Of a stretch of DNA of 64,000 bases, positions 30 through 56,771 are shown piece by piece. Source of the DNA: Paraspadella gotoi (lineage: Eukaryota > Animalia > Chaetognatha). How positions within the stretch are numbered: the first letter of the stretch is position 1; every line of letters begins with the position of its first letter. Under the pieces are notes generated by a model. It worked only from the letters and a program-made list of their open reading frames with translations. It did not search any database and was not told where the DNA came from. Both the position numbers and the translations under genes were made by a program. The stretch lies in NCBI GenBank assembly GCA_051294375.1, contig CM119264.1, positions 11,135,832 through 11,199,831 of the forward strand. The letters are read 5' to 3'.

Positions 30-3000
30 CCACGGAAGCGCATAGCCAACCGATGAAAACGACGATGATAGAAGGACGTATCCATTCAGAGAGAAGGAAA
101 GGGCTGTAAACGTACTTAAAGAACTGAAAGAGGAAGGATTCTGATCCCAACTCTCGAAGGGAAGGCTCAGAGAGTCCCACGCAGCAGCAAATGTCGAACT
201 TGTTTCTTTCCTGCGCAATATTATAACAATATCACAAAGACGCAATGTGTTATTGATTAAGCCAAATCAATTCGGAAGAAAATCGTACATTTGAAATGAA
301 ATTATTTCGATAATTTGTCCGTAAAAAAAATTGAATTGTAGGTACTCTAATGGAACAACTAGAGGGTGAACTTAGGTAATATTTTGCCTGATTAACTGAG
401 CAAAGTGTCAGTCAAATTACCTTGGTAAAGAAAAGATTTTTCTTAATTAAGATAAGTAATTTTTGAATCAGAATTTTTACACAAATTTCAAATGGGAGTG
501 AAATAGAAAGTTGTTATAACTGAATGTGTGTAATATTTGTTTCTTTCATTAGTTTGAAAATTCTCTGACGTTTATGTTCCTATATACTATATAGCAAATT
601 GATAATACTTTACATCATAACTGGTGCGCTTGACATCTAACAGCTTTTTTTTATAAGAAAGTAAGCAAGCTGGACTACTGGGAGTTAAAAAATAAAAAAC
701 GTCCGCGATTTTTTTGCCAGAGTGCAAAATCTGAAGTTGCATTATCAACTTATTTAGCCATAGCATAGTATTTGATCTTTTCATTTCACTACGTGTATTT
801 TATTTTTTTTAAAGATAAATTAAACAATATATTTCTCTTTTTTTGTTTAATTGATTTCCTTTATAACTACTTTTAATTTGTTATTGCTGAATTTTAATCA
901 AAGAATTGCATCCGGCATGAAAGTATCTACAGTTATATGGCCTTAAGACTTATGTATAGAAGCTACTAGTAGGCCCAAAACCAATAAATTGTGACTGATA
1001 GATTAGTCGATTGATAAATGATAAATTTACAGATGATACTTAGACGAATAATAATAATGTGGATGCATACATTTAAAGAGATTTGCAATGTACATGTCCT
1101 GATATGCTTGAAAAGATGGAACCTTCGATCACAAAAATGATATAAAAAATGTATCAAAGACTCAAATCAGCCAAAAAAAAAGGATTTTATCATCAAAGTC
1201 AAAGCTCACTAGAATTCTTAACTTGCTTTCATACGATTTACATACTCTCGCTGATTATATAAAAAAATTTTGCTGGATTCTAAACCCTGTCACCAAACTT
1301 GAAAATTTTTTTAACAAGATTAATTTGTTTTTTATTAAAACTTTTTAGGGCTTAAACTATTTAATGTCAATGTTAAGCAAAGTGTTGTATTTGAGAAAAG
1401 ATTTATAGTTTAAGAATTAATACCCTAAAATATTCCATTTTATTAATTTATATTGAATTCATCATCAATTTGTTTGAATTTATTTAAAAAAGCGATTCTC
1501 TTCTTAATTTTAGCAAATAAGACCATAAATTTGTCAGTTATATTTCTGTTAGGTAAATAGTCTATTACCTACTAAGAAAATATATTTACCCAAGTTCACC
1601 CGTTAGGAACAACCGATCAGTCAATTTCATCATCTTTTTTTCTCTTTGACCAGACTTGGCATATACTATTAGTCTATTATTAATACCCATATCTAACAAC
1701 ATCAAGCACGTTATTTCAATGAATTTCAGTCCCAACCTGTCTCTTTGCGTCAAGAGCCAGAAATGCGACGAAAGTGGAAATCTGCAGAAGAAAGTCGATG
1801 AGAACGGCCAATGCGGCGTAAAGAGAAAATATCTTGACGGCGGGCATGTCTGTGATTGCGCCAAGAAAAAACGCCACTGCTTCCGAACACCCTGCAACAA
1901 TTAAACGCCGGGGAAGTATTTTATAAATCTAAAGATATATTTTTTTTAAAAGTACAAAACTTATTTTGTACGTAATAGTTTTTCTTTATAAGAAATTAAA
2001 AGCTTTAAATGATCAAGAAAAGGTCTAACCTGTAAGCATCATCGAAGGCGCAACGGACCCGACAATCCTTCCGATTTGTTCTTCGACAGTCTCGTCAGGA
2101 AGCCGAACGTCACGTTGAAAGGTTTGCACCAGGATGAAAATGTTGTCCACTCCAACGGCCAGCACCAGAAATGGAATAACCTACATCAACAGTCGTTTCC
2201 AAGTCAATAAAAGGACTAAACATACCGTAAGCAACTTCAGTTTGAATGAATTTATCTTTCAATTCATATCACCTCAATAATGATGAGAGTTAGTGGAACT
2301 CCACAATATGAATATATTCCAATAGACGTTGTCACGGAGACAATAACTATAATAACACCAACAATTCCCAAAAGCATTTTAGTATCGACCAGAATTCGGA
2401 GGAAACTACAAAGGAAATTTATATGAGATTGTTACAACCAATATAAAAATTATCCATTCATTTAATAAATAAGCTATCTCGCCCCTGAATTATATGCGTT
2501 TTATTTCGAATTCAACAAGGTTGATTCAGTACATACAGGAGCATCAAAACAAAACAAAGCTAAATCTAAACACAAAACAAAGTTAAAGATTGCGTGAAAA
2601 CTTATGGTGGACTAAAATCCACAAACCGTTCATCAGCGGCCTTTATTCGCCTCCCAACCCAAAGGTCCGGGGTTCTAGCCCGGTGGTCGCCTAGCAGTTA
2701 AGAGGGACCGGGCGCCTAACGTAACACGATGTTACAGCCTGATCCGAAGCTCAGGGACTGCTTTCCTGAACGGTTCTCTCACTAACTCATAACAAATATT
2801 ACTGTCTCTTTATGTTTATGATAAAAATCACAGTAACGAGTAATAAGATTCCTAATATGTTTAAACTATGATAAAGAGAGAAAATGTCTGCAAAAAATGC
2901 AATTTTAAAGCGCTGTATTTTTTAAATTAAAAATTGATTAGCACCATTAAAGTTGAAACAATCATACAAATAAAAATAAATGATTGTACTTTTTTGATAC

Positions 3001-6000: not shown

Positions 6001-9000
6001 ATACTTTCCTACCCACATAAAAAAATTCAAATCAATTGCCCTATCCACTCATGAGTAATTGAAATAATTTTTTTGGTTTTTTTACATTTAAACTAATTTC
6101 CACTCGCACGATTCCATCGAAACTTCATATCCAGCTCAATCCCCCACTTCCCTACCCACACACAAAATTTCATTTCAATCCATCCATCCAATCACAAGTA
6201 ATTGGAGTCTTTTGCTAAGGGGGTAAGAACGGATGGACATTTATTTTTTTGCATAATTTTTCATAATTGATGTTCTGACATAATATAAATGAATGCCTGA
6301 CAAGATTGAGGGGGCGGACCGACGGACCGACAAAGTGAATTATAGAGTCGGGATCTGCTGTAAGCATATCTGACTAGAAATATGTTATGGAATTTTATGA
6401 AATTGGTACAACCAATATAAAAATTATCCATTCATTTAATAAATAAGCTAACTTGCCACTGACTTTGGACAGGATTTATATTATCACCTCTCATTTTTAA
6501 ATTGCATACCTACAACCACAACATCACTAGAGACGAGAAACAAGATCGGTTCATCCAATGTATTCCGCCGGAATGACTATTTTATGTGTATTTCTCGTAA
6601 CTTGACAGGGCGTAACATGACGCTACATAACATGACTAATTGACTACAATAACTTTATTTGTATTTTAACTGTATTTATGTCACGCACTGCATAGGAGTT
6701 CCGTCTTTTATTCTTTATACTTATAGTTTTAGGATTTTTTGAAGATTTGAGGTTTTTTTCTGTTTTAACAAATGAGCAACTGTAGTGGTAGTATTTCATA
6801 CCCCACTACTCGTCCGAGAATCAGCAGCACCTATGGCGCCGGAGGTAGCACGAGCTCCTGCCAACCCAAACGACTCTGGTTCGCGCCCTGCTGATTCACA
6901 CATGTAAAAGCGGGACGGGGCGTCTAACCCACCTGTAGTGTCGGACTACAGCCCGATCCGAAGTTCGGGACCTTGTGTGCAACGGACGGTAAACTGCTCG
7001 CGGCATCGTCTTCCACATTGGTGAGCCCACACGAACACGCTGGCACGTTAATACACCTCTGCCCGGGCATGTTAACACACCTCTGCCCTCGACCATCGTG
7101 TGTGAAGACGGGAGCAGGAATAGGCAGCCCCTCCTAGAGTGCTCGGGCACAACGCGTGCATCATAGCCATCACACTTGCGCGGGTGTGTGATGCCTAGGG
7201 GGGGATGTGTAGTGGTAGTATTTCATACCCCACTACTCGTCCGAGAATCAGCAGCACCTATGTGCATTTACCGACTGACAGACCCAAAGGTGGTTTATAG
7301 ACGATAGAGTTGCTCCGCGAGTACAAGTACAAATTATTACTTTGTGGCAAGTAAAATCATTCTCGATCTGAACCTCGTCCCGTTTACTTGCCACAACTTA
7401 ATTTAGAAGGCGATATTGCAGCAAGAAATGAAATATGTTTTATTCAGTAACAAATCGCGTCGTAAGTTCGAAAAATAATTGAGCAAACCAAATTATTCTT
7501 TAACCCGTCATACCCAATTAGCTAAGTCCAAATTCCTCAATACAATTTTAATACTAACGCGAGTTGTTTCAAAATAAGTAGCAAGAATTAATTGCGTACC
7601 AGGACAGCAGAATACTTCTGAAAACGTATCGTGTTTGTATATGAAGGAATGGCATACTGTGGCGCCCCAGAATATCATAAAAAAAAGTCCAAAGATGGAA
7701 GCCATGATGAGCGACATACAATCGATTCCAAAGATGGTGCAAGGAACGGGAGGTGGAACCGGTGGGACTGGGGCTCCGCAAGATGCCTCGCAATCCTATG
7801 ATTTTTGGTAGATTGTAACTCTGTACAGTGTACAGTGTACATTGCATAATTTGGATATTTTTACCTGACAAGAACATGCTGCAGAGTCGTTTGTCATTGG
7901 AACATCACAAGAATAGGACGTTAGATTAAAAGCACTGGGATAAAGTTTGACATGTTTTAATCCAAAAGTGAATTTTGCCGGGTGAACTGTCACTTTCACC
8001 TGTCGGGATAAAAAAAAATGGATGAAGAGTGAATACAGAGAGTCCTGTCTACACTACAGTCAGGTACAAAAACATCGCGCCACTTTATTTCAGGCTTTAA
8101 AAATCACCCTATCTATTTGAAATTTTTTTTAAATTTAAAAGTAAATTAAATTTTATTAAAAAATGATAAGTTTAATATAAATTTTATTAAAATCGGGCCG
8201 TTTAGGAGCAGAATTTTTTTTAAATAAAATACTTTATCACAAACCTGAATATGAAAAAAATTTGATAGATTTAAGATAAATATTTTTTTAGATATTTAAC
8301 TTTTTTTGTAATACATTTTAAAAAATAACATTCGGAGGGATAACTGGATAACTTGATTACCCCAGATCCTTAAATATAAAAATTATTTTTTATATAATTT
8401 TTAAAGTTTAAAGTGGCGCGTTTTTTTTTCTGCACATGAGTGTAAACGATTACCAAAGCATAGTAAGTAATACTAAGTATATATCATGATCATTTGACGC
8501 AAACATTGGATAATTTTGAAAACTAACCAGTGCATCGATAGGAGAGGCCCCATTGCTCTTACTGCCCATAAATGATAACAATTTTTGAGCAGTGCACGTT
8601 TTTGCGTCACTTCCAGTACCGCAAAATAATCCAATCGCTTTCTGATTATTGGAAGGATACTGAACGTCTTTGCATGAATTAAAGAAGTCGTCGGCCGTAT
8701 CGTTTGAAACGACTGTTTGAATACTTTCAACTTTGTCACCTGATGGAATTACAGACTATTTATTAAGATTGTTAGGACTTCCAATCATATTTAATAAGAC
8801 TTAATTTTACATTCACCGATTGGGGTTAGGGAGGATTAAGTGTTCAGGGCGATTTAGGTTTAAGGATGGTTACGGGTGGTTTGAAGTCTTTTTAAAATAA
8901 TAATATTCTTAAACTACTCATAAGATATAGCGAATATCCCAGTCGGCGTATGTAAAACTTTGCCCAGAGAAATTTTTGAGGAACGTTTTCAAAGGGGCTT

Positions 9001-16700: not shown

Positions 16701-17008
16701 ACAACAATTATGAAAGTCTCTTTAAATATTAATGAAAGAGAAAGTTTACAAAAAATTACTGTGCTCAGCTCTTATGGATTATCTCTTTTGTGTTCTTTCT
16801 GCTTTTGGTTATTTTACCGATTGCCGTTGGATACGACCGTTTCTTTTCTCAGTGCCGTAAAAGCACACTGAACTAACGTTTCTTCTCCCAAACTTATGGT
16901 CCCTGTTTCTAGCCATGGTGGGACCGGTTTTTTTTTTACAATATGAAAAAGTCTGCAATAAAAGTCTTTTGTCCTTTTACCACAAAATTGACTTATGATG
17001 TTAGATTT

Positions 17009-17290
17009 ATCAGCGGCCATTGGTGCCGGAGGCAAGTCATTTGCCTCCCAACCCAAAGGTCCCGGGTTCTCGCCCGGTGGTCGCCTAGCAGTTAGGAGGG
17101 ACGGGGCGCTTAACCCTCCTGTAACATGGTGTTACAACTTGATCCGCTTATATTGAACGGTTCTGTCACTAAGGCCTTAAACCACCAAAGCCTGTCCAAA
17201 GTCAGGGACAAGATAGCTTATTTATTAAATGAATGGATAATTTTTATATTGGTTGTACCAATTTCATAACAATAATTATTGTCTCTTCAG
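17009..17290 (+). mobile_element. Family A copy 2 with family C repeat embedded near its 3' end
   Basis: GCGGCCATTGGTGCCGGAGG...CCGGGTTCTCGCCCGGTGGTCGC tRNA-like head and hairpin body to 17172. Family C occupies 17173-17269, then the family A tail ATAATTATTGTCTCTTCA follows. Confidence 0.8.
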
Positions 17291-17344
17291 ATTTTGATTA
17301 GATTTATTTTCCTCATGCATGGAAGCATTTTAATAATTAACAAT

Positions 17345-18185
17345 ATATACCTGTCCCTCCCCTACCACCAGGGTATCACTGAATCATTGGTGCGGGTGCT
17401 GGCAGAACAGGGGATCTCCAGTTCAGTGACGACCCGCGGCTCTTTACGTAAGCATTTGGTGAAACCGAAAGACAAAATCCCCAGACCGAAAACATCAGGA
17501 GCCGTCTATTGGGCGGCTTGTGCAGGAGCGGGCAACCAACCTTGCACAGCAGCATACGAAACAGGCAAGTCTCTATCAGATAGGTCAAGCCCTATTGCGA
17601 CTCTAGAGGGCACTATCTGTCGGTAGTTGCTGAACACGCAACAACTATGGGCCATCTGTTTAGAGAAGAGGACTGTCTCGTGCTGTCCCATGAACAGAAC
17701 TGGTTCTCAAGAGGTATTAGAAAGGCAATCTACATCAAAGCCCTCTTTGAACCGTGATGGAGGACCATTCGAACTCCCTCCAAGCTATGATTCGCTTATC
17801 AAAACTGTGGTGGACCACCCAACGCCACCTCAGCCGCACGGTGATTCCCCTGTCCTCACTCAATGGGTCAGGAGGAGGCCTCTCAGCAGGCAATGGACAT
17901 CCGATGACTCAACCGAGCCTGCAGCAACTTGGCGCGACCCTTCTCGCGTCGAGCGCCGCCCAAAACGACGGCTGCAGGAGGAAGTAGAGTAGTCTGTATC
18001 ACCTGTCCCGAAACAGGCTAGAACAGGCAACCGCCTGCTTCACCGTCAGGTGAGAGGAGGGCCTTCGGCAGGCCTATCAGGTCAGAGAGATATTCGAGTG
18101 GCGCTTGGCATTTTCCCAGCCGGATCCAACCTTGTCCCACTCCACCACAATATCCTCTCAGCCCATGACATTTTCAGCTTCCTAT
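17345..18185 (+). mobile_element. Degenerate Penelope-like retroelement 3' fragment (RT linker plus GIY-YIG endonuclease)
   Basis: LSLPYHQGITESLVRVL...SLRKHLVKPKDKIP..SGAVY..C....C.AAY-ETGKSL, then a frameshifted KPSLNRDGGPFELPPSYD. This motif order is typical of the C-terminus of Penelope/Poseidon ORFs. GC content is higher than the flanks. Confidence 0.8.
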
Positions 18186-19124
18186 GGTTACACACTTGAG
18201 CTATTTTCAATGTTAAAACAGCATGACGACGACGACACCGACGACGACAACGACGACAATGGTCAAAAGAAGCAGAAACGAATTAATATCTCGCCCGGCT
18301 GACGAGATAAAAAACGCTGACTTCTTTCCGAATAATTTTCTTCTAGGAGTAGCCACAAACGCACCCATACTTTTAACTAAAGAATTTTTATGATAATCAT
18401 AGATGTATTCCAGTTATAGAGCTTGTCGTCTCAGAAATTATTGATGTGTGCTACTGTAGGAACAATTATTTTAAACTACTTACTTAAAAGTCAGAAAATT
18501 GTTAACTTGAATGAAATTGAAAAAAAAACCAGGCCGACTTGCCCCTGACTTTGGGCAGGCTTCCATCCCTCTTACAATAAATCAGCTTATTTGTAACCTT
18601 CCGTAGGTAGTTTATGACGAGAAAATTTCGTATGATATCGTTTTCCTGGAAATCTCAAATCGCCAAACCGCACTTTTCGTCGCCACTTTTCGTTCCCATT
18701 GCTAAAAAACATTGATATGGGGAATGGGGATTGGACAATGGACAATGGACATATGAAACCTAGCCAAATAAATTCGCGTTAATAAAATTTACATTATTAG
18801 TTCATAGTTTATTCAGAGGACGATACTTATTCATAGGTAACAATCGGCTCAATGGTGGTGATTTAAGAGGGACGGGACATCGAACCAAACTAGTATAGTG
18901 AGACTAACATTCTACACGCAGTTTTTTGTCGAAGTTCTACCTCGTTGGTAGGCGTCCTGAAGAATTGTATACGCCTGCGAGAGAAGTCCTTAGTGTTCGG
19001 ACAGATTTAATCATTAATGACAGCTAAAAATCTTCATGGCTACCCTAATTGGATTCTAAAGCTCTAATAAGATTTCCTTAGACCATTTTTTACGATTTTA
19101 ATTTTAAAAATTAAAAAACGGTTA

Positions 19125-19719
19125 CAACAGAAACAAGAAATTCAAATGTTATGTTGCGCCGCAGTGACTTTGTTATCCTGTGTATTTCCGTGTATTTTCG
19201 ACACTCCTGACAGATAAAAGATTTTATTCCAATGCAGTACAGGAGTCCTGTACTGCATTGGAATAAAATCTTTTATTTTATATAGTTTAAATGAGATTTC
19301 TTTAGAAAACATAAGGCGGCGCTAGTAGTCGCTTAGATTTGAGGTTTATTCCTGTCTTAACAAATGAGCAACCAACTACAGCCTATAGGGTAGTTATGAC
19401 AAACTTTCCTGTGGGTTAACTATTGTGGCCCATGGTCCTCGGACTCGCTGAATGAATAAATACAAATACAAATATGAGCATCTTTAACACAAAGCTTGCA
19501 GGGACCTGCTATGTCATTATCTTGTAAGAGTGATGGAGGCCTTAAACCACCAAAGCCTGTCCAAAGTCAGGGGCAAGATAGCTTATTTATTAAATGAATG
19601 GATAATTTTTGTATTGGTTGTACCAATTTCATAAGTATGACAGACCGACAAACTGACCGACAGACCGACCTAAAAGTGACTTTCACAGTTGCTCCGCGAT
19701 TACTTTCGGCACAACTAAA
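19125..19719 (-). mobile_element. HINE-like family B element containing a family C copy (19538-19634)
   Basis: Subterminal inverted repeats GTTGCGCCGC (~19153) and CGGCACAAC (~19707), a GACAGACCGAC microsatellite and a terminal stem-loop AGTTGCTCCG...CGGCACAACT. Confidence 0.65.
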
Positions 19720-19758
19720 GAGTTCGAAAACAATAAATATCAACGATTTCGTTAATTT

Positions 19759-22993: not shown

Positions 22994-24914
22994 GGCGATT
23001 TCTAAAAATTAAAATAGAGATTTGGCCTATGATTTTGGCATAATTCTGAGCGTAAAAGAAAAAATAACAATGCTCACTTCAGGGCTTAATTTTTTAGTTA
23101 TTTTTTTTCCCCCAAATTGTTTTTTATAGTTTGGTAAACGAGCAGATAATTTAAATAAAAGTATTTTTGTACTTTTTAAATAAACAAATGTAAGACTAAA
23201 TGTTTTTTTGGATGTTTGCGAATAAGGGAAGTGAAAGGAAAAAATGAGTCGCGTAGAAACTACGTGACGGAAGCGCGTGAATGCCGCGAATGGTTATTGG
23301 AGAGGAGGAGAAAGAATAGGGATTGACGAGACGCAACGAAGGTGACAAAAAAAATAAGGATTTTCAATGGCACATCGATAAGATATTCTCGAAAAACTCT
23401 TTCAATGGAATTACCTTTTTTTAAGACGCTTTTATGTTTGACTGTTTAAATTTGATTGTACTCAACCGAGCGTGGGAAACAAAATGTGCATCATGGAGAT
23501 CTTCATGTCGTATGAAGCTTGTATGTCAAAAAATGAATGTAAAAGGTGCGTCTTTTGTCAATCTACTAAAAAGATGATAACGGTTAAAAGCTCACTCTTT
23601 TCACCCACAAAGTCTTTGTCGAGGCGAGGTTAATCTTGGTCGCTGAAGAATCTTGGTGACCACTTGGTCACGATGTTCTAAAAATACATGCGCAATGACT
23701 CATGAACGCGGTAAAAAGGGCGGTGGAAGGAGACTAATGGCATTTCAAGGGGAAAGAAATTTGCTTCCCTTCCAATGATATCTACTGTTTGCAATAGAGT
23801 TTTTCTCTCTCTTTCTTTCTTTCTCTCTTTCTTTCTTTTTTTTATTCTTTCTCTCTTTCTTTCTTTATTTTTTTCTTCTTCTTCCTTTATTTCTTTTTGA
23901 TACTTTTTTCCTGTAAATTGTGTTAATATTGTTTTTTGTTTTTTTTTTTCATGACGATGACAACCTACGATGGTTTGGCATGTTCGGGTCACACAAGCGA
24001 GGTCTTGCCAGTGAAGACTTCGCTGAAGTGAAAACTAAAAGAAAAACTGATGAAAAGAAAAAAAAACAATTAAACGAAGATTGCAAAGTTAATCTTTCGC
24101 AATTGCTTTGCTCACGATATAAATAAAATTAATATGTTATTAATACGAATATTAGTAATTATTATTTTTATAAATCTGATTATTTAATAATTAAATGATA
24201 TGTTTCGAAATATTTTTTCGGCATATAAAGACGATTATAATAATAATATTAACAAAATATATAACGAAAAATTGTCAGCAATTGAAGATTTTACTTATTG
24301 TATTTAGCTTCTATTCTAATTACGAATGAACGCGATTGCTTGGCTTCAGCTCAGCCACTGGGAGGACGTCAAGAACAACCTCCATTGATTTCCTCGTTTT
24401 AAATCTGAAGAGTTAATGTCAGGGACGTCGTCGTCGTCGACGACGACGACGACAATATGAACGAAAACGACGATGTTGACAAAAAGGGGAAGAAGGGAAA
24501 AGAAACGTGACGGAGATGATGATGGAGAGGGAGCAAAGTTGTAAAATTTAAAAAAAATGGCTAAGGCAGTTCGGTTGGGGGGGGGAAAAAAAGTAAAGAA
24601 ACCCTTTTGCTCCTTATTAGCACCATGGGGTGAAGATTAAAGATTATCTTCATTTCACTTTACTCAAGCTTTCCTACTATCAGAGCTGACCTATCGTGTC
24701 AGCTTGAAAAAAAAATGACCAAAAGTTTTGGGAAAACGAATGTATTCGTGTATACACAGAGAACCGCTTCTTAGTCGCGATCGATAATATTTCCCCCCCC
24801 CTTTTTTTTCTTTTTTTCTTTTTATTTTCTGTTCTGCGAAAGAGAAATCGCGGCGAGTTTCCAATTTTTCTCCTCAAAACATTTTTTGGATACAATTTCC
24901 ATTCTTGTTTTGCT

Positions 24915-26056
24915 ATGTCTGCGGTTACATCTTCATTCACGCCACGCCCTCTGGTCGTCTGCGGTCCTTCCGGCTCTGGAAAATCGACGCTTCTCAAACG
25001 AATCATGAGTCTCGATGAATTCAAAGGGAAACTCGCGTTTTGCGTTTCCCATACGTCTCGGTAACGCTTAGGGGGCGGTGGTGTAGGGGCCTAGGGGGGA
25101 GATGGTAAACCTAATATTGAGAAAAATAAGCGCAAGGTCAGGAAAATTATTCTATTCGTTCAAAGAAACAAACCACGTCCTTTCAGTTGTTTAAATTAAT
25201 ATTGCGCGAAATAAGGCAAAAAATAAATTCATAGGATGAATTTATACTTAGGGAAATATGTGACCTCAACTGGCGAAAAATAAGGCAAATTTTTGCAAAT
25301 AAATCGCTAATCATTAGTAATATGAATCAATTGATAGTTTATCCATGTCATTGGTTCAATGACTCCCCGTCTGAAATTTTTGAATTGTATAAAAAGCAGC
25401 AAAATGATTAATAATGGATAAACGAACTAGATTAAGAAATAACCCAAAATATTTTTCTCATTAGACAGTCTTTTCGGTTTTTTATTCTAATAAATATTCG
25501 GAGTGTCTGTTAAGAATTCATGAATATAGAAATAATGTAAACATTGTTAGAATCATGCCAGCCTCTCGGATCAAATATTTTTCTGATAAAAAAAAAAAGT
25601 CGAAAACTATGTTTATAAACAAAGCGGTGCGTACATAAAAAATTGAGGCCGTTTCGACTTCGTCGTCGTCTTCGTCGTCGTCTTCGTCGTTGTAGAGTCA
25701 CCAGAAGCTTTTCAATTTCCCCCAATCATAAATAATACGATTACGACCACGAACTATTCTCATTTCCTCTCTTCTGCACTCTTCCCCGTTTTTTCTCACT
25801 TCGAATCCGGCACTCCCGCAGGCAACCTCGGCCGGGAGAGACCGACGGAGTCGACTATCACTTCGTCCCCTTCGCCGAGATGCGCCGGAAAATCGAGGCC
25901 GGCGAATTCGTGGAATCCGCCCAGTTTTCTGGAAATCTTTACGGCACCTCGAAGCGCGCCGTGGAGGAGTGTCGCGGTCAGGGAAAGATATGCGTCTTGG
26001 ACATCGACTCTCAGGCGAGTCGAGTCAGCGTGACTTTTTTTTGATCACGAAACGAC

Positions 26057-26154
<98 letters not shown>

Positions 26155-27475
26155 ATTAATATTATTTTTATATATAATAATTATTATTATTATTAACAAT
26201 TATTAACAATTATTTTCAGGGAGTACTCAGCGTGAAAAAAACGAATCTGGATCCAGTTTACGTATTCATTCAACCGCCGAGTTTGACAGAACTTGTGAGT
26301 TGATGAAAATTCTGGAGATAAGCGTAAAGCAGATACATAAATGAGGCTGAAATATTCTATTCATTTTTATCAATTTTGTTTTTTTTTTTCGCTATGATTC
26401 CTTGAAATTCAGATGAAACATGTCGATTGTCCAGATAATAATCGGTTGAGCATTCGCTCCGCCGACTAAGGGTTTTTTTTTAAAATCTCGCAAACAAGCG
26501 GATGGAACGAGCGTGAATAAAAAAAAAGTGATTATAAACACATGATTAACGTTTTCTCTCAAACGACAGAAAAGTCGGCTGGAGAATCGAAATACTGAAA
26601 CAGCAGAATCACTGGCTCAGAGGATGCGACTCGCCGAGAGGGAAATGGAATTCGGTAGTATTTGTTTGTGAGAGTTGTCGTGTCGTGTGGCGAGGGGGTA
26701 AATATTTTGGCGAAAGAATTAGCCGGATTGCTAGAATGGAATGGAATGGAAATATGGAAATATATAAAAAAAGATGGAAAAAGAGATTTTTTTCAAAAAA
26801 ATGTTTAGAAAGTTAGAAAAACAGATTGAAGAAAAAAAAAAGATTTTTAAAACGAAAGACGATTTTAAAGGCAACTTTTCTCCGCTCATTGTAGACTCTG
26901 TAGACAATGTAGAGTGAGCCAAAGAGAAACTAAATAAGTAAATAACATACCGCAAAATAGTAAGTAGGAAATAGTTTAGCAGTCTCTTAAATTTGAGGTT
27001 TTTTCTGTCTTAACAAATTAGCAACCAACTCTAGGCAAATTATATGTATTTTTAATATAAGTGGGACAAACCGACGGACAGACATACCGACGGACCGACC
27101 GACAGACCGACCGAAAAGTGACTTATAGAGTTGCTCCGCCAGTACTCGCGGCGCAACTAAAAACCTTGTTTAGTCTCGAAAGGTTTTCCTTTACGCGTTT
27201 TAGAGATAATCGTTTTCTGAAAAGCCATACAGAGCGTTCGTGAGAATGGCCGAGGTTTATTCTCTCATTGGACGAAACAATGACGAAGAAGCCCCTTAAT
27301 TATTTGTCTTTTTCGATTAATTTTGAGCGCCGATTAAACCTGTTAACTTGTTTATTGTTTTAATTTAGGCGAACGCAAAGACAATTTTCACTTTCGTATC
27401 GTGAACGATAATTTGGAAACATCGATAAAGGAATTGGAAAAAATCGTGAGAAATATCATCGAATCAGCTTCTTAG
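24915..27475 (+). CDS. GUK1: Guanylate kinase (5 exons)
   Basis: RPLVVCGPSGSGKSTL P-loop, VSHTSRQPRPGETDGVDYHF, EFVESAQFSGNLYGTS, ICVLDIDSQGV, VFIQPPSLTEL, RLENRNTETAESLAQR and IVNDNLE. Exons at about 24915-25060, 25822-26014, 26220-26294, 26570-26654 and 27369-27475. Confidence 0.95.
26990..27163 (-). mobile_element. HINE-like family B terminal portion in a GUK1 intron
   Basis: GACAGACCGACC microsatellite followed by the hairpin AGTTGCTCCGC-CAGTACTC-GCGGCGCAACT and AAAAA. Confidence 0.65.
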
Positions 27476-28454
27476 AATAGTTTTGTTTCCATTAAATTTT
27501 GAATTTTTAATTTTAAATTTTGAAGAAAAGTCTATTTTTATTTTAAGTATTTAACTATTTGGACTTTTCCCCAAGAGGTGTAAAACTACGTATTTATATA
27601 TTTTTCACTTCAAGAATTATTTTTTTATGATAATTTTTATGATAATATAATGGTTTTATGTGCGTCTGTTTCCCATATAGGTAAATATCGTAAATATAGT
27701 AGAGACAGGAGAGTTGTCATCTTTGAGGGATTTTCCGCTTAAAGTTAGTAGTGAGGTCACCCTAAGAGATATCCTAAAAACGGAGCCAAATATTCCGCAT
27801 CAGACGGACTTAGTTTTTTCTTCCGCCATACTGCCAGTATTACTGGGCTGCTAAAAGGGCCGAGCGTTCTTTAAATTATCATAAATTAATGTCGGAAAAA
27901 ACCCATATCGGCGAGATTAAAAAAATCAGATCAAATAATCTGCGGATGGTAGATTACGAAATCTCTACATGTGTGCAAAAAAAGTTTAATAGTTATGGTA
28001 AAAGCATTTCAGTTCGCTATTTGAATGAAACCAACACTTTTTATGACTGCGTTAACTTAATACTTTGTTGGACCACTGTTTGCCCTTCAGCACCACTTTC
28101 ATGCGACAAGGGAGAAAGTCGTAGAGGCTGCGTAAATATGAAGAGTTCATATTACAACTTCACTATGATTCATTCAAAAACTTTTAAACTTGAGTTATAG
28201 CACCTGTGGGAAGACTGTTTTTAAGCGCCATACAATAAGCTATTAAAACGATAATGTTTGGTATATTAATAGCAGACTACATGATAAGTCTCAATAATTT
28301 AACAAGTAGCAGTGATAAAATATATTTTATTATTATAATAATATTTTGTCTCAAAATTTTAATTTTGATATAAGCAGTTTTTTCTGTAGAGCTAAGATTT
28401 TTTTTCATTATCATTGTATTATAATGTTGCTTGGGGACATGGAAATGTTGTTTG

Positions 28455-28689
28455 TATGGTGGACTAAAATCCACTAACCGTTCATCAGCGGCCATTGGTC
28501 CCAGAGACAAGTCATTCACCTCCCAACCCAAAGGTCCGGGGTTCCAGCCCGGTGGTCGCGTAGCAGTTAAGAGGGACGGGGCTCTTAACCCTCCTGTAAC
28601 ACGGTGTTACAGCCTGATCCGAAGCTCAGGGACTGCTTATATTGAACGGTTCTGTCACTAACACATAACAATAGTTATTGTCTCTTCAT
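28455..28689 (+). mobile_element. Family A copy 3 (most complete): tRNA-Gly-like 72-nt head plus multi-hairpin body
   Basis: Acceptor-like stem GCGGCCA (28488-28494) with TGGTCGC (28553-28559), T-arm CCGGG..CCCGG and anticodon-loop-like CTCCCAA. The anticodon stem is broken, so this is not a functional tRNA. Confidence 0.8.
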
Positions 28690-28889
28690 TTGATAAGTAT
28701 AGTCGTTCATATTGTCCTCTTACCCATTCTGTTAAAACTTTTGACATCATATTTTTAAAAATTTATAGTTTTTAACAAAATAATGCCTTTAAATCGCACA
28801 TGAGTAAATAATTTTTATCGAAGATAGATGATTCCTTGCTTCCGAAAGAATAAAATTAAATTTCTTATTAAAAAAAAATCTTATAACCA

Positions 28890-29113
28890 TAACAAGAAAA
28901 AAAAAAACAAGGAACGGCTATTCCAAGGTGTTGCGCCTCATTACTTTTTGATTTTTAACAAATGAGCAACAAAATATAGGCTAGTTAAAAGCGTTTTTAA
29001 CATAAATGGGACAGACCGATGGACAGACATACCGAAGGACCGACCGACGGGCCGACCGACCGAAAAGTGACCGACCGAAGAGTTGCTCCGCGAGTACTCG
29101 CGGCGCAACTAAT
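28890..29113 (-). mobile_element. Short HINE-like family B element
   Basis: GTTGCGCC (~28930) and GCGGCGCAAC (~29100) subterminal repeats, a GACCGAC microsatellite and the hairpin CGCGAGTACTCGCG. Confidence 0.65.
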
Positions 29114-30384: not shown

Positions 30385-33300
30385 ATGCTGTTTCAACAAT
30401 TTTCTCACATTTTCAAGCATGGGACTCGATATTTTTATTCGTGGAGAATTGTGTCCTCTGGTAACCTTAAATGTTTACCAAACGACAACAAAACTACCAA
30501 GTACATTCATTCCGGTAAGCCTCCTGAGTCTGAGACATAAACAGAAGGATGAATAATGTCTTTTGAGTAAATACAGAAGGCTTCATATTGTAAAATGTGG
30601 TACCCCTTTTTTGTGACCAGAACACGTTCCGAGAAAAAAACTATTGAAGAGATTTAATGAAATTTTGCATGCGGAGTACCAGAAGTGATACAAATGGAAC
30701 TATCATGGCGAACTTTTACATTCCACCCATAAGCTGAGATAAGGGGGCCTGAGTGCCACAAATGGTCAAAAATTGTTTTCAAATTTTTTAATTATTTTTG
30801 TTTTAAACAGTTGCACAGACTTTACTCTTCCACAAAAACGTATTTATTACCTCAAAAATATTCATTTACCTTAATTTTTAGCTTCGTGAACATCAGCAGT
30901 TAAAGTCAGATTTGGAATAATTTGGGAAAATTGGAAGTAAAACGATGAACCATGCATCTTCAACCATGCTTAATTATTGCAAGTTTATTAATTTTAGTTC
31001 TAAAATGTTTTTTTCTTTATGTTTAAAACGTCAATGCACCTGATGCTACTAAAAAAATAAAAATAAAAATTTTAGCATTTTTTGGCACCCCAGGGGTCCA
31101 CCCCCAGGGCCCTGTACTACATTTTATAATATGAAGCCTTCTGTATACGTATCAATACAATAATATCATTTAAATAATGACATACAAAATATTTAAAAAG
31201 GACAATAAATAACTCTATTTGATATTTCAGAAAATAGAATCGGAGTTAAAAGACTGCTATGCCTAAATTCCAAAATGTGAATTTTAAATTCTAAAAAGTT
31301 AAAGTTATAATGCATTGTCGGTCGCAAGATGAAAGAATTCCATTAAGACCTAGCATCAAATTCACAGATTCCACGAGTTTTCACATGTAAATTTTTTAAG
31401 CAGATAACGAAACGACCAGGACCGACTTTGCCCTCACCAAAGTTTACCCACTCGCTCAGTCAAAGACGTTTGACCTGGAATTGGTCAACTTAAATCGAGT
31501 TTATGAACAAAAGTCGACGTCCGAATTGGTGCGCGCTCTCTTCGTCCTGCGAGTTTGCGCGGTAGATTGGATTGCCGATAACAGGTAACTTTAACTGGAG
31601 TTTGAAATCTTGGGATGTCCTCATATCCGTCATTAGTAAATTCATTAAATTTGTTTCTGGGCGTAATACGTATTTCTGTCGCAGGTCATACTTATTTAAA
31701 TCTCTTTTGTTACGCACTTACGGTTCATCTTTTGTTACAGTTTTGCCCTGATGTCTCTTTCTCGGCGCATTTTACCTAATTTTGCCTTTCGCGCCGTCTT
31801 TGGTCCGACTCTTTATCGTCAGTTCGTCGCCGGAGACAGCTTGTCGGAAATCCAAGCGACTACCAACAGATTAGAGGGAGCAGGGATACAGCCTATGGTG
31901 GCAGTGTCTATTGAAGTAAGTAGATGAAAGAAAAACATTAAACCACGAAAGCCTGTCCAAAGTCAGGGGCAAGATAGCTTATTTATTAAATGAATGGATA
32001 ATTTTTATATTGGTTGTACCAATTTCATTAAAACAATTAAAAAAAAAAAATTCGTTGATAGGACGACTACAAGTGCTCACTATCCCCCGCCGGATACCAG
32101 AATCTGTAAGAAAACAAATAATGACTTGACTTAGTTCAATGTTCCTTGAGCGTTCAACTTTTTGTATCGAAATTTTACTGGACAGTTATGAAAAGAATTT
32201 GTCAAAAATATTGGAATGCGTCGCGATAACTTCTGGAGTCTCGACGGAGGGAAAGGGAACGATGCAAGTCAAAGTAACCGCACTAGTTCCCAACTATTTA
32301 CTTCATACAATTACCGACATACTGCGTTCGGAAGATGTAGATCAGTGGCTGGCTCGGCTTTCTGGTACGTAAGAGTGTCAGTTAGTTAGAAATTACAATC
32401 AAATAATAAAAATACAATTATTATATTTTTATGCATTTGTATTCCGCGTTTATTCTTCGTATCGCCTTTTGTCATTGTGAGGGAATACTCTATATTTTTA
32501 AACTTTGCTAGAAGAATCTTCCGAGAACTTTTCTCTACTCTTTCCCGAAATCTCCCGCGAGGAAACGACGCAATTAGTCGACGGGTTGAATCGCCTGGAC
32601 GTCGTCGCCGCAGCAGCCGCGTCGGCGTGCGTCAGAGTTCTCATCGATGCGGAATACGTTGACCAAAATATCGCAATTGCTTTTCTCTCTTTATTCTTCA
32701 TGAAGAAGTACAACAGGTATGGAGCGCATTCTAAAGTAACAGGGAATTGAAAAGTTCTCTATTTTTCTCCATCCTACAATTCAATCGCAGAAATCACGCT
32801 ATAATTTGGAACACATACCAGTGCTACCTGAAGGAATCGAAAGAAAGATTGAGGCGGGATCTTTTCATCGCCGACCGGTTGCACTTTTGTCACGGAGCCA
32901 AAATTGTGAGAGGGGCATACATGGAAAAGGAACGATATTTAGCGAAAAAACGGGGAAATCCATCTCCGGTTTGGGAGACGAAGGAACAAACGGACCGGTG
33001 CTATGATGAGGTGAACGACAGCTTCTTAATGTTTTCAGGATTTCAGGTTTTCAGGTGTTTTCCTCGGGTTTTCAGGTTTTATTGTACTGTTAGCTTATAG
33101 ATTACACTCATAACGCAAATAATAGCTCGTTTTTCTCGACCGAATTATCCGGTTATAAAGACCTGTAGTCAACAGGGTTCGTGTCGTTCCTTTATTTCTG
33201 AACCTTATTAATTTAGATTTTCATAGAAAATAGTCAAAATTAAGAAATTTTCTTTGAATTTCAGACTATATCTTTTCTGTGTTCTCGCGCCCATTCCCGT

Positions 33301-34084: not shown

Positions 34085-35589
34085 TTGATTGATTGATTGA
34101 TTCGAGTGTATTTTTTTTGGTGTAATTTGTCGATGCGGCGATATCAACCGAAATCGATACTTGTCGAATACGAAAAATATATTGTGATGTGCACTGTATT
34201 TTAAATAATCTTTACCCAATACTGGAAATAAAACGTAAACAACTTATAAAATTTTGAATTTCAAAATATAAAAAGTAAAAAAAGTTCTAAAGGGACTCTT
34301 CCCTCCTTCCAACGAAAGGCAGATACTCGCATAATGTTTTGTCTATAAAAAAATCTTAAAATGAAGAATCCCCTCCAGGACCCAAGGGGGGGGGGGGAGA
34401 CGGAAGAAGACGTAGAGCCTCAAAAGGACTGAAGACCCCAATGGCGCCGCAAAATTTTATTTTAAATGCTTATTCTTGAAAGTCACGTTATGCCAATCAA
34501 ATAATTAATCAAAAAAGCAATATTAAACAAATAAACAAATCCACGAAGAATCCACGAAGCGTCGATTAAGCGTCCACAAACGTTTATTATTTTGGAGAAG
34601 TTCCGTTTCAGAGCAGAATTATAAATAATCGCGAGAGACAGATTATGAGACAAAAGTCGATATCTCTCTTGAATTTAATTAATTTAGTTTATTAAAAAAA
34701 TTAATGTATAAATGTATGAGAGACAAAGAGATTATAAAAAAGAAGTAAAAGATGGTGAAAAAGAGAAAAAAAAAATTAAAAAACATATTTGACTGTTCAT
34801 AATTGATTGATTTCTAAAATTTTTACAATAATTCTTTTCAAATCTACTAACGCTAATCAAGGCTTTCTGATGATGTATTATGTTTTTCTTATAACTATAA
34901 GTAAAGTAAGATATTTTCCTGAGCTTAACCCATATCTTTTATGTTAATATTTCGCTCAAAACTTCATTTTTACAATTTAATCAAATTTTTACTGTTAAAA
35001 AAAATATATATAATAAAATATATATAAATAAAATAAATAAATATATGCATTTATTAAATGAATTGATAATTTGTATATTGATTGTACCAAAAAAAAAAAT
35101 TCTCTTGAAATTAATATTTGCAAAATATATTTTCCCTTTTGTTTTCCACAGAGCGCCACTTCCTTCCTTCTCCTAGGTTTTTATCCGTTTCCTAGAAACG
35201 TTTCTAAACACAGACGGAAGAAAATAAATCCGATTTGTCAAGACGTTTTTGGTCGTTATTCTCTCTTAAATCACAACTTGTCAGGAGTAACGAAAGTCTC
35301 GCGATGAAGCCATCGACGTTCCATTAGTGACCAGAGATGGTGTATTAAATATTTATTCCTTCTTTGCCAAAACCTGCACGTCGAGCGTTTATATATTTAC
35401 TACAAGCAGGTTGACGAAAATCTGTTTGCCCCGTTTATCGGAATAAAGACGTAGACTAACTTCAAATACTGAAAAATTAATTTAATAAATGATAACTATT
35501 GTTGTTAGTAATTAATTAATTATCTTAATTAATTAATTATCTTAAATTCGAAATTACGTTAGTTTATAGGTATAAAAATTAAATTCAAA

Positions 35590-38923: not shown

Positions 38924-40752
38924 TGAATGAATGAATGAATAAATGAATGAATGAATAAATAAACGGAATGGGCAGTGGGCACGCTACTTGCGGCCTATAT
39001 GACCTTTTAGTCACATTAAAATGTTCTTACGACGGTCAAAGAAAAAAAATGCTGTCCTGAGAATGTTCTGTCTTGAATAATTATTTTATATCGTAAGGAT
39101 TCCCAGATAATTCTTAATTTAATGGTGTAAATATATTTTAATAATTTTAAGTAATTAATAAGTAATTAATTTATAATGATTTTCCTTTGTTATAAGATTC
39201 AGTTTTTTATTGAAGATGAAATTGGATGACCATTAAAGAAAGGTTGTTTTAAATTTTATCTTAATCTTATGAAATTAAAATATAATAAACGTCCAGTTCT
39301 TTGGTATAGAATGAGAAAAGAAAATTGTAAAAATATTTATCCAATGAGAAATGGTACGCATTTTTTTGGTCTCACTCGCGAACGGACACTGGGTATTAAA
39401 ATTCAGTTTGATTTTGCAGGACAAAGACCTAAAAACCATGTGTCACACCACTCTTCAAGACGAAGAAGAGAGAGAGAGTCTTTGAATGCTTCTATCAGTT
39501 ATGACAAAGAACTAATTACCAAGATAATTGGGAAAAAACGTGTGAAAACAATTTTTTTCTCGACGTTCTCTAAAAATTGTTTCTGCGTTTGGCGGTTAAT
39601 AATTGTTTTAATGATGATTCAATTTCTTGTTAATATAGATAAAGACATAATTTTAAAAATCGGAAATTCGCTGGAGATGAAAAAAAAGAGTAAAAAATAT
39701 TTAATCTCTTTGTCAAAAAAATGAATAAATATTGAACGTGATCTTGACGGTTATTTCCAGTTATACGATGAAAGACGAAAGACAATTTTGGTCTAAGTAA
39801 GTATATAAAAAACCCAACCTGAGAGAGAGAGAGAGAGAGAAGAGAGTTTAAAGTCCCTATACTGTAACAAGATAATGACCAAGCAGGTCCCTGCAAGCTT
39901 TCAATCAAGACTCTCTCACAGTCTCGTTTATTCACTCCCAGAGCATCTGGCTTCCCTATCAATGAAGAGTTATAATGTTTCAAAGAATGTTTCAATTGTA
40001 TGAAAAGACCACTCCCTTAAGTATTAGATCGGGAAATGCTATATCGTACTCCCAGAATCAAAATATTTGAAATTTATGAAATTTATGAAATTGATACAAC
40101 CAATATAAAAAGTTATCTATGAAGAGACAGTAATTATTGTTATATGTTATTTCAATATAAGCAGTCCCTGAGCTTCGGATCGTGCAACACCGTGTTACAG
40201 GCGGGTTAAGCTGATGAATGGTTGGTGGATTTTAGTCCACCATATCTATTATTTTATTCTTATTTTTCCCACGCTATTTTTTTTGGGATCTCAAACACAC
40301 TTTATAACCACGAGTGTTTTCATTTACTTATCGATAGGTGCGCTGGAGAACGGTGGTAAACCAATACCTGTCGAGACAACCCTGGGTTACACAAAAGAAC
40401 AAGCTGAGGCAATCCACAAGATAAAATCTGCTCGTGACAATTACGAAAAATTGGGTAGGCTGTAAATATAAAAGTTGTAAGTTCATTGTTGTTTGTCTCT
40501 TGTCAATAAACACCAGTCGTTAATTGGTTTGAAGGAAACGACATAATTAAAAAAAAATAGTTAATATGATTATGAACTTGCGGCTCATTTTGATCAGGAT
40601 TGCGGTGTGGCGCGACAGCCGATGAGATCAATCGCGCTTACCGAAAGTTGTCGCTGCTGTTGCATCCGGACAAAAGCGTCGCTCCGGGAAGCGAAGAGGC
40701 CTTCAAGCAGCTCGGACTCGCCCGAACCGCCCTTCTACAGCAACTCAGTTGA
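36027..40752 (+). CDS. DNAJC27: DnaJ homolog subfamily C member 27 (RBJ; Ras-like GTPase plus J domain), 6 exons
   Basis: RIKIISMGNAEVGKSCLIKRYCEKRFVSK, YMTTVGIDFGVTK, FDLAGHPVFYDVRNEFYK (His in place of the switch II Gln, as in the RJL family), VCGNKTD, FETSALSG, GYTKEQAEAI and a J domain AYRKLSLLLHPDKSVAPGSEEAFK. Confidence 0.95.
37200..38035 (+). mobile_element. HINE-like family D element
   Basis: Reverse-orientation relative of 5509-6380: CAGCAGATCCCGACTCTAT, GTCTGTCCGTC microsatellite, ...CAGATCCCCGACATTGTTGGCTCAGCTTGTT. Confidence 0.65.
40083..40244 (-). mobile_element. Family A copy 4, internally deleted (tRNA head lost) and fused to the family C terminus
   Basis: On the minus strand: TATGGTGGACTAAAATCCAC...CTGTAACACGGTGTTG...GATCCGAAGCTCAGGGACTGC...GTCTCTTCATAGATAACTTTTTATATTGGTTGTATCAATTTCATAA. 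Confidence 0.75.
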
Positions 40753-56733: not shown

Positions 56734-56739
56734 CTCCCA

Positions 56740-56771
<32 letters not shown>

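What the first reader, a model, noticed from the sequence alone, without database searches (positions are those of the whole stretch)
28455..28689. Two diverged repeat families share a multi-branch RNA fold through compensatory substitutions
Family A (here) and the TRIM LTR (6781-6990) keep the same ordered stems with different sequences. 5' hairpin: GTGGA/TCCAC versus GTAGTGG/CCACTAC. Long-range closing stem: AACCGTTCA (28476)/TGAACGGTT (28643) versus CGTCCG (6811)/CGGACG (6983). Junction stem: AGCAGT/ACTGCT versus CACACA/TGTGTG. Hairpin CTGTAACA/TGTTACAG versus CTGTAGT/ACTACAG. Hairpin CCTGA/TCAGG versus CCCGA/TCGGG. The loops ACGGGGC...TAA and TCCGAAG are conserved and could kiss (CGGG with TCCG); read on the minus strand the latter is a cUUCGg tetraloop. 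Covarying stems with invariant loops imply selection on an RNA structure. Inference: an undescribed packaging/RT-recognition signal or other functional RNA motif fused to a tRNA-Gly-like head. I could not match it to the CORE, V or Deu SINE domains or to known ribozymes by eye.
Basis: partly seen in the sequence, partly recalled or inferred. Interest (0 to 1): 0.78.

Follow-up and report, generated by a model that had tools for sequence, protein, structure and literature searches.

The report
Twister ribozyme in animal mini-retrotransposon LTR
The flagged repeat is one end of a small, protein-free jumping gene whose ends carry a tRNA-like promoter followed by a conserved twister-type fold that likely cuts its own RNA and would let the element copy itself through an RNA circle, a design I found described only in plants and with a different ribozyme.

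Summary
28455-28688 is a solo LTR with a 4-bp target duplication; other copies run into a primer-binding site or follow a polypurine tract. 6781-7262 is a sister-family TRIM: LTR, 190-bp non-coding interior, truncated second LTR. Both LTRs carry tRNA-derived A/B boxes, as in Helenus TRIMs (Kojima 2024). The shared core is a type-P5 twister ribozyme: catalytic positions are invariant, both pseudoknots covary, and a descriptor found 0 hits in 300 shuffles. Rfam misses families A and T. This copy breaks one pseudoknot pair that 94-99.7% of family read depth keeps. Likely mechanism (inferred): Pol III transcribes from the 5' LTR, the twisters cut both LTRs, and the 427-nt unit is circularised and reverse-transcribed by a Gypsy helper, as in plant LTR retrozymes. 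P1 is only a self-complementary hexamer, so cutting may need two copies. Cleavage, expression and circles are untested. Ten literature searches found no twister-bearing LTR element.

The parts
28455..28688 (+). Solo LTR of family A (234 bp, starts TA, ends CA)
   Evidence: Loose ends of diverse flanks pile up before 28455 (103, 122, 94 and 27 contigs in runs X1, X3, X5, X9) and behind 28688 (169, 172, 110, 44). A PBS follows 28690 in 19 (X1) and 12 (X5) contigs; a polypurine tract precedes 28453 in 23 (X3). One search showed 24 of 726 loose-end rows.
28451..28454 (.). Left copy of the 4-bp target-site duplication; right copy at 28689-28692
   Evidence: the copy at 40120-40244 (-) has its own, different 4-bp duplication.
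28457..28484 (+). 5' hairpin (28459-28474) and 5' arm (28476-28484) of the long-range clamp whose 3' arm is 28643-28651; lies upstream of the predicted Pol III start
   Evidence: compensatory differences against family T read by eye from alignment A2.
28488..28559 (+). tRNA-derived domain: acceptor-like stem, degenerate box A (from 28496), box B GGTTC (28540); predicted internal Pol III promoter
   Evidence: Box A to box B is 44 nt in both families (28496/28540 and 6834/6878). No ARAGORN call. Promoter activity is inferred.
28562..28637 (+). Type-P5 twister ribozyme fold: P5 28562-67/28632-37; P2 28571-74/28589-91; L1 3' strand 28575-79; P1 hexamer 28580-85; predicted cut 28586^28587; T2 5' arm 28592-93; P3 28594-28612; P4 28613-17/28626-30; L4 28618-25
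   Evidence: Mapped on the Rfam Twister-P5 consensus and the S. mansoni table; pair counts. This copy has a T2 mismatch at 28592, where 94-99.7% of family depth reads G.
6781..7017 (+). 5' LTR of family T (TG...CA) with tRNA-like domain (about 6821-6894) and an intact twister fold (6897-6979; predicted cut 6925^6926)
   Evidence: Loose ends before 6781 (16 and 13 contigs) and behind 7017 (36, 39, 28); passes the full twister descriptor.
7018..7207 (+). Non-coding interior of family T: PBS from 7019 (first ten bases shared with family A's PBS), polypurine tract 7197-7205
   Evidence: longest ATG ORF in 6781-7262 is 66 aa. The priming tRNA was not identified.
7208..7262 (+). Truncated 3' LTR of family T (55 bp, identical to 6781-6835)
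   Evidence: contigs of other copies continue from 7256 into LTR sequence (joint 7256 to 6861).
2603..2813 (+). Decayed family A solo LTR with deletions in box A and in twister P2/T2
17006..17172 (+). Partial family A LTR, L4 deleted, tail interrupted by a family B fragment (17172-17278)
40120..40244 (-). Family A solo LTR with an internal deletion, an intact GC/GC T2 and a 4-bp duplication
19520..19581 (+). Same twister subtype in a third, otherwise unrelated repeat (family B); predicted cut 19543^19544
   Evidence: Rfam Twister-P5 25.8 bits, below the gathering score of 37.6; E 0.0019 on a 381-nt search, E 0.32 on the whole window; passes the descriptor.

Best explanation
The finding is a solo LTR of a Helenus-type TRIM (a protein-free LTR retrotransposon with a tRNA-derived domain in its LTR) whose LTR also holds a type-P5 twister fold that likely self-cleaves, so the element likely works as an animal LTR retrozyme. 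Shown: LTR ends, 4-bp duplications, PBS, polypurine tract, a short non-coding interior (family T), A/B boxes at tRNA spacing, and a twister fold conserved between two LTR families that are 60% identical. Inferred: Pol III starts at the tRNA-like domain of the 5' LTR and meets no T4 terminator inside the element. The twisters in both LTRs cut at U^A and release a unit-length RNA (427 nt for family T) with no repeated R region. P2, P5 and the outer clamp hold its two ends together, a host RtcB-type ligase closes the circle, and a Gypsy reverse transcriptase primed at the PBS copies round the circle; Gypsy integrase inserts full or solo-LTR copies.
For: Twister identity: a descriptor built from the Rfam consensus and published sequences, with a 3-bp bulged P2 allowed after I had seen these sequences, hits only 6910-6968 and 19528-19571 in the window and nothing in 300 dinucleotide shuffles. 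On five sequences (A twice, T, B, L036) 96.8% of 63 cells pair and 10 of 14 pairs change on both sides; 0 of 500 shuffles reach this, and slid controls give 27-55% (three of the 14 pairs are the P1 hexamer). T1 middle pair is C-G, U-A or A-U; T2 is G-C or A-U. Between A and T, 16 of 16 catalytic and pseudoknot-loop positions are identical against 117 of 206 elsewhere. The family majority keeps T2 and completes P5 in T (6903). Published assays: P1 is dispensable and P2/P4 imperfections are tolerated (PMC11662667, section 32). LTR anatomy. No T4 run in 28455-28688 or 6781-7262. Circle model and loss of R: PMC4918200 Discussion. RtcB closes animal retrozyme RNAs in vitro, and tandem twisters make circles in mammalian cells (PMC7229834 passages). 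Parallel case, read by eye: the published Helenus-2_SyJa and -2_SyUm LTRs carry a type III hammerhead right after the tRNA-like part.
Against: No cleavage, transcript or circle was observed. Rfam gives no twister hit for A or T even at E 10; B and L036 stay below the gathering score. The fold departs from phage type-P5 twisters: P1 is 6 nt against 14-26 nt in all 19 distinct matches from 29 viral loci, P2 has 3 pairs with a bulge, and A/T have one extra base between P3 and P4. The flagged copy has a mismatch in the 2-bp pseudoknot, which published data say lowers cleavage. Some copies decay at T1 (28621 G>A in 3-13% of depth). The 427-nt unit folded as a circle is not unusually stable (z -1.4, 10 of 100 shuffles as good, 65% paired against 63%), below the 70% quoted for retrozymes. 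Box A fits the Helenus TRGCY motif only partly. The interior length of family A is unknown. The covariation alignment has five rows, and the structure was drawn from them.
Confidence: 0.62

Rival explanations
1. The twister cuts, but mainly in the 3' LTR, where it stands in for a terminator. The RNA stays linear with an R region of about 100 nt (promoter start to cut site) and is copied by ordinary LTR strand transfer.
For: The 5' hairpin and the 5' arm of the clamp (28457-28484) lie upstream of the predicted Pol III start, so only the 3' LTR copy is transcribed with them and could be selectively activated (inference). No T4 terminator inside the element. The circle fold is unremarkable.
Against: The twister core, including P5, lies wholly downstream of the predicted start, so the 5' copy should fold too. 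Twisters tolerate a missing P1. In a plant retrozyme the primary transcript was fully self-processed (PMC9695139 passage).
Confidence: 0.2
2. The twister-like fold no longer cuts and is kept as a structural signal (dimerisation, packaging or RT recognition); the palindromic hexamer would act as a dimer-initiation site.
For: Non-canonical P1, P2 and P3-P4 link; no Rfam hit for A or T. All four intact cores have a self-complementary hexamer.
Against: The unpaired catalytic positions (U^AA, the general-base G and following A, the L4 adenines) are invariant across A, T, B and L036, which a purely structural signal would not need. About 94% of natural twisters tested were active (PMC11662667 abstract).
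Confidence: 0.1
3. The twister is a passenger: a fragment of a Penelope-like or other retroelement tail (family B type) fell into an ancestral LTR and is carried along without function.
For: The same subtype occurs in family B, which has a fixed 3' end and variable 5' truncations. Unchecked earlier notes place it in Naiad tails. Four L4 motif searches found no twister in published Helenus LTRs.
Against: A and T have diverged to 52% identity in the non-core part of the twister (34 of 65) while keeping every stem paired and 16 of 16 core positions. That requires selection inside the LTR lineage. Capture may explain the origin but not the maintenance.
Confidence: 0.08

Closest known systems
Helenus TRIMs (TRIMp3), Kojima 2024, PMC10886601
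   Same: Short non-coding LTR element, tRNA-like A/B boxes inside the LTR, PBS, polypurine tract, 4-bp duplication as in animal Helenus, many solo LTRs; a full T element would be 664 bp, inside the published 311-1263 bp.
   Different: Here the tRNA-like part is followed by about 130 nt holding a twister fold and no T4 run. The main text has no 'twister' or 'self-cleav'. The PBS is not among those in Fig. S2. Box A is more degenerate. Family A's LTR begins TA, not TG.
Plant LTR retrozymes, Cervera et al. 2016, PMC4918200
   Same: Non-autonomous LTR element with one self-cleaving motif per LTR, PBS, polypurine tract, 4-bp duplication, presumed Gypsy helper; double cleavage removes the R repeat.
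   Different: Animal host (inferred), twister instead of type III hammerhead, tRNA-derived promoter, smaller (LTR about 235 bp, interior 190 bp against about 350 and 600-1000). Circles are shown in plants, not here. That paper found no PBS or PPT in animal ribozyme repeats.
Type-P5 twister ribozyme (Rfam RF02684); S. mansoni twisters and T-variants of Perere-3 (PMC8501958)
   Same: Order of elements, U^AA site, GAnGG/UCCnAAG pseudoknot, 2-bp second pseudoknot; P3 begins like the S. mansoni P3.
   Different: P1 is a 6-nt self-complementary stretch that cannot form a normal hairpin; P2 has 3 pairs with a bulge; a P3 hairpin that the Rfam model lacks. Perere-3 ribozymes are type P1 and sit at the 5' end of a non-LTR element.
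Dimeric minimal hammerheads of Penelope-like elements and amphibian retrozymes (PMC6765202, PMC7761336 passages)
   Same: A very short palindromic helix that could pair only between two copies.
   Different: Different ribozyme class and element order; dimer cleavage is shown for hammerheads and only predicted here, and twister P1 is known to be dispensable.

Membership tests
Helenus (TRIMp3) | Two LTRs around a short non-coding interior | tested here: met
   Family T: LTR 6781-7017, interior 190 bp, second LTR 7208-7262 (truncated in this copy, continuing in others). Family A's interior length was not seen.
Helenus (TRIMp3) | tRNA-like sequence in the LTR with boxes A (TRGCY, YGG) and B (GGTTC) | tested here: met
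   GGTTC in both families, 44 nt after a degenerate box A that matches TRGCY at 4 of 5 (T) and 3 of 5 (A) places. Box B met, box A partly.
Helenus (TRIMp3) | PBS and polypurine tract | tested here: met
   In the window for T; in loose ends of contigs for A. The priming tRNA was not identified.
Helenus (TRIMp3) | 4-bp target-site duplication (animal type) | tested here: met
   2 of the 3 family A copies with both ends show one (28455, 40244); the decayed 2603 copy does not. Not testable for T, whose 3' end is lost.
Helenus (TRIMp3) | Pol III transcription and Gypsy-dependent mobilisation | not testable with these tools
   Also unproven for published Helenus.
Twister ribozyme, type P5 | Conserved catalytic nucleotides around U^AA, the general-base G and L4 | tested here: met
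   Invariant in A, T, B and L036.
Twister ribozyme, type P5 | Both pseudoknots (T1, T2) with covariation | tested here: met
   the flagged copy breaks one T2 pair that the family majority keeps.
Twister ribozyme, type P5 | P2, P4 and P5 helices in P5-permuted order | tested here: met
   P2 has 3 pairs with a bulge.
Twister ribozyme, type P5 | P1 closed as a hairpin | tested here: not met
   Only 6 nt, against 14-26 nt in phage examples; self-complementary. P1 is reported dispensable for cleavage, so I file this as a variant.
Twister ribozyme, type P5 | Rfam RF02684 gathering score (37.6 bits) | tested here: not met
   No hit for A or T; 25.8 bits for B, 27.3 for L036.
Twister ribozyme, type P5 | Site-specific self-cleavage | not testable with these tools
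   Needs an in vitro assay or raw RNA reads.
LTR retrozyme | Self-cleaving motif in each LTR of a non-coding LTR element with PBS, PPT and 4-bp TSD | tested here: met
   Met at sequence level.
LTR retrozyme | Type III hammerhead as the ribozyme | tested here: not met
   The motif is a twister; no Rfam hammerhead hit. It works like a retrozyme but is not a member as defined.
LTR retrozyme | Circular RNA of unit length, highly self-paired | tested here: inconclusive
   Only the fold could be computed: z -1.4, 65% paired.
tRNA-headed SINE | tRNA head at the 5' end, LINE-like tail, variable long TSD | tested here: not met
   The tRNA-like part is internal; both ends are fixed; PBS, PPT and 4-bp duplications flank the unit.

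The most novel reading that the evidence does not exclude
This is a Pol III-driven animal LTR retrozyme whose twister cuts efficiently only as a strand-swapped pair: the palindromic hexamers of the two LTR copies form one 6-bp P1, both sites are cut in the two-LTR transcript, and the released monomer, once circular, cannot rebuild P1 and is protected from re-cutting. Promoter-plus-ribozyme LTRs would have arisen at least twice in animals (twister here, hammerhead in two wasp Helenus families). Support: four intact cores have four different fully self-complementary hexamers, where 5.3% of all hexamers are. The one metagenome match of 50 that passed all pairing tests had a perfect palindrome, against 2 of the 49 that failed. 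Against: twister P1 is reported dispensable.
Probability: 0.27. Interest if true: 0.86.

Novelty: new variant of a known kind. Interest (0 to 1): 0.72.

Why it matters
LTR retrozymes are described as plant elements with type III hammerheads, and animal ribozyme repeats as non-LTR. Twisters have been tied to non-LTR RTE elements. An animal LTR element with a twister joins two separately described groups, Helenus and retrozymes. It offers an answer to how a Pol III-driven TRIM without a terminator defines its RNA ends, and it gives the twister class a testable role in LTR retrotransposition. If the hexamer works as predicted, it is a natural dimer-gated twister, the counterpart of the double hammerhead. 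Standard Rfam scans miss the motif, so more such elements are probably unannotated.

Tried and rejected
No whole genome is held for this window, so no genome-wide alignment or R-scape-type test was possible; I built no covariance model. MAFFT misaligned the phage twisters, so I did not model from that alignment. The look-up of sequencing runs: no RNA holder listed; X9 is only guessed to be RNA and all four runs laid are contigs, so nothing is claimed on expression, ends or copy number. Exact patterns for the A/T subtype found nothing in metagenome contigs or viral contigs. The looser fixed-gap pattern, which fits only the short-P3 (B-like) form, gave 46 + 4 matches, 49 of them chance. Rfam at E 10 gave only unrelated weak hits on A and T. 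Pfam found nothing in the Penelope-like fragment near 17340-17990. Rejected: hammerhead or HDV-like ribozyme (no cores, no Rfam hit); functional tRNA; minus-strand UUCG tetraloop as the selected feature; the 6781 repeat as a mere central tandem repeat of the surrounding Helentron-like element (it has its own LTR ends, PBS and PPT and is mostly solo elsewhere). Roth et al. 2014 is not held; twister helix names and numbering beyond searches are recalled. Earlier-findings look-ups by sequence, by place and by two word sets returned nothing.

Full report
OBSERVATION. The two regions are homologous over their whole length (133 of 222 aligned positions identical). Folding gives z of about -2.5 for both as first delimited and -2.4 and -1.3 on exact LTR ends. 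The window is eukaryotic with short introns; a MAP3K12-like kinase, NPC1, guanylate kinase and proline dehydrogenase point to an animal (inference). No whole genome is held.

WHAT THE ELEMENT IS. The window holds four family A copies and one family T element. Laying contigs of 4 of the 9 listed runs on 28430-28720 gave 6733, 12000, 2460 and 895 pieces. Flanks diverge sharply before 28455 and behind 28688. A minority continue behind the right end into a TGG-initiated primer-binding site (19 contigs in X1, 12 in X5) or are preceded by a polypurine tract (23 in X3); 24 of 726 loose-end rows were shown. The first ten bases of the PBS and the end of the tract are those that flank the interior of the 6781 element. 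Two of the three A copies with both ends have a 4-bp duplication. Family A is therefore a solo LTR. For T, (800, 1244, 442 and 84 pieces) fixes the LTR at 6781-7017. Summed contig depth is roughly ten times higher over the LTR than over the interior, which fits many solo LTRs but is not a copy number. The interior is 190 bp without a long ORF, and the second LTR, cut off here after 55 bp, continues in other copies. Each LTR holds a tRNA-like domain with a degenerate box A and GGTTC 44 nt apart; it is not a callable tRNA. This is the anatomy of animal Helenus TRIMs (PMC10886601).

WHAT THE FOLD IS. Downstream of box B the order is P5, P2, GACGG, six bases, UAA, P2, two bases, hairpin, hairpin with loop UCCGAAG(C/U), P5. 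This is the type-P5 permutation of the twister ribozyme as printed in the Rfam consensus, with a P3 like that of S. mansoni twisters. The two bases after P2 pair with the end of L4 (T2): AC with GU in T and B, GC with GC in A. The flagged copy has T at 28592, but 98, 94, 99 and 99.7% of depth in the four runs reads G, as does the window copy at 40244. A descriptor requiring the catalytic bases, both pseudoknots, P2 and P4 hits only T and family B in the window and nothing in 300 shuffles; it was relaxed to allow a 3-bp bulged P2 after I saw these sequences. On five aligned sequences 96.8% of 63 cells pair and 10 of 14 pairs change on both sides, above all 500 shuffles and all slid controls. 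The set is small and the structure was derived from it. Between A and T, 16 of 16 catalytic and pseudoknot-loop positions are identical while the rest of the twister is 34 of 65, so selection acted within the LTR lineage. Against: Rfam does not recognise A or T, B and L036 stay under the gathering score, and some copies decay at T1. Published high-throughput assays show that P1 is dispensable, P2 and P4 imperfections are tolerated, and mismatches in the 2-bp pseudoknot reduce cleavage. The family is therefore likely active and this copy likely weakened.

THE P1 HEXAMER. In all 19 distinct pattern matches from 29 phage loci P1 spans 14-26 nt, and in 17 of the 19 it folds as a hairpin. Here it is 6 nt and cannot form a normal hairpin. 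It is fully self-complementary in A (copies 17105 and 2711, and the majority letter at 28583; not in the flagged copy), T and B; 5.3% of all hexamers are. I noted the dimer idea before testing it. Of 50 collection matches to a pattern that left the hexamer free, one (L036) passed all pairing tests and has a perfect palindrome; 2 of the other 49 are self-complementary. Unchecked notes from other genomes describe the same feature in Naiad tails; they are leads, not evidence. Minimal hammerheads with a palindromic stem III cut as dimers (PMC6765202 and PMC7761336 passages). A double twister is plausible but not required.

MECHANISM. Shown: anatomy and conserved fold. Inferred: Pol III starts at the tRNA-like domain of the 5' LTR and finds no T4 run inside either LTR or the T unit; the first lies 51-176 nt into the flank at three loci. 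Cuts at 6925^6926 and at the equivalent 3' LTR site release a 427-nt RNA without an R repeat. As argued for plant retrozymes, such an RNA can be reverse-transcribed from its PBS only after circularisation. RtcB closes animal retrozyme monomers in vitro, and tandem twisters yield circles in mammalian cells. I put the circle model at 0.62, cutting mainly at the 3' LTR with a linear R-bearing RNA at 0.2, a non-catalytic signal at 0.1 and a passenger at 0.08. The circle's predicted stability is not above shuffles (z -1.4), which counts mildly against it.

COMPARISON AND NOVELTY. It meets the testable features of Helenus and works like an LTR retrozyme, but lacks the hammerhead that defines that family, and its twister fails two formal features (hairpin P1, Rfam score). 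The Helenus main text has no 'twister' and mentions ribozymes only in a reference title. Four L4 motifs searched in its supplement gave 12 places, none in a twister context within an LTR (line breaks can hide an 8-mer). Two wasp Helenus LTRs in that supplement appear by eye to carry a type III hammerhead at the same place, which suggests convergence. A 2026 preprint still describes LTR retrozymes as primarily plant and hammerhead-based. Ten full-text searches found no twister-bearing LTR element and no natural dimeric twister. Subscription papers and Repbase were not searchable.

PAPERS SEEN. PMC10886601: main text parts 1-4 of 6, a term search, supplement parts 1, 9 and 10 of 11 and two searches. 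PMC8501958: abstract, sections 3 and 17. PMC11662667: abstract, passages, sections 32 and 35; supplements not read, and they may list related sequences. PMC4918200: abstract, sections 10 and 11. Passages only: PMC6765202, PMC10085705, PMC7761336, PMC7229834, PMC9695139, PMC8557442, PMC13570524 and bioRxiv 10.64898/2026.07.22.740005 (supplements not seen). PMC5408937: search listing only. Roth et al. 2014: not held; its alignments may already include sequences of this subtype.

VERDICT. Real, selected structure; a known ribozyme class in a known element class, in a combination I could not find described. Novelty: new variant of a known kind. Interest 0.72.

Noticed in passing
window 19373-19635 and fragments 17172-17278, 31938-32039, 6395-6477(-), 2422-2491(-), 18538-18562(-), 39846-39901(-), 40083-40120(-), 35049-35090: Family B: a repeat with a fixed 3' end and variable 5' truncation that carries the same twister subtype; the 31938 copy begins within a base of the predicted cut. 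It may be a Penelope-like (Naiad) tail, a lead from unchecked earlier notes.
   Followed up: partly
PMC10886601 Data S1, Helenus-2_SyJa-LTR and Helenus-2_SyUm-LTR: Both published wasp LTRs hold, directly after the tRNA-like part, a complete-looking type III hammerhead (CUGAUGA and GAAAC cores, three stems, complementary loops I and II) that the paper does not mention. Read by eye, not folded or tested.
   Followed up: partly
L036 138-204 (-): Independent twister of the same subtype with a perfect palindromic P1 hexamer, about 30 nt downstream of a TATA-like motif in GC-rich DNA; host and element type unknown.
   Followed up: partly
window 6763-7330, 19355-19720, 27008-27161, 28955-29112: Four copies of a Helentron-associated-type element (label recalled) with subterminal inverted repeats, GACC/GACA microsatellite and 3' palindrome. 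Two carry a twister-bearing insert (T and B) right after the 5' subterminal repeat.
   Followed up: partly
window 17340-17990: Frameshifted fragment resembling a Penelope-like GIY-YIG endonuclease by recalled motif; Pfam found nothing.
   Followed up: partly
window 6837-6891 in run X9: A contig piece at depth near 10,000 matches only the tRNA-like part of family T and runs on into a T4 stretch: possibly a related SINE, tRNA-like gene or Pol III transcript.
   Followed up: no
window 5200-9600, 24700-26050, 32735-33100, 38044-38500, 45600-46830: Intron-split host genes: NPC1-like, guanylate kinase, proline dehydrogenase, MAP3K12/DLK-like kinase and a Rab-like GTPase (by eye).
   Followed up: no
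window 51173(-) and 56195 regions; 50280-51020 and 56126-56860: Two related stretches about 5 kb apart in opposite orientation, next to assembly gaps; possibly a local duplication or an assembly artefact.
   Followed up: no
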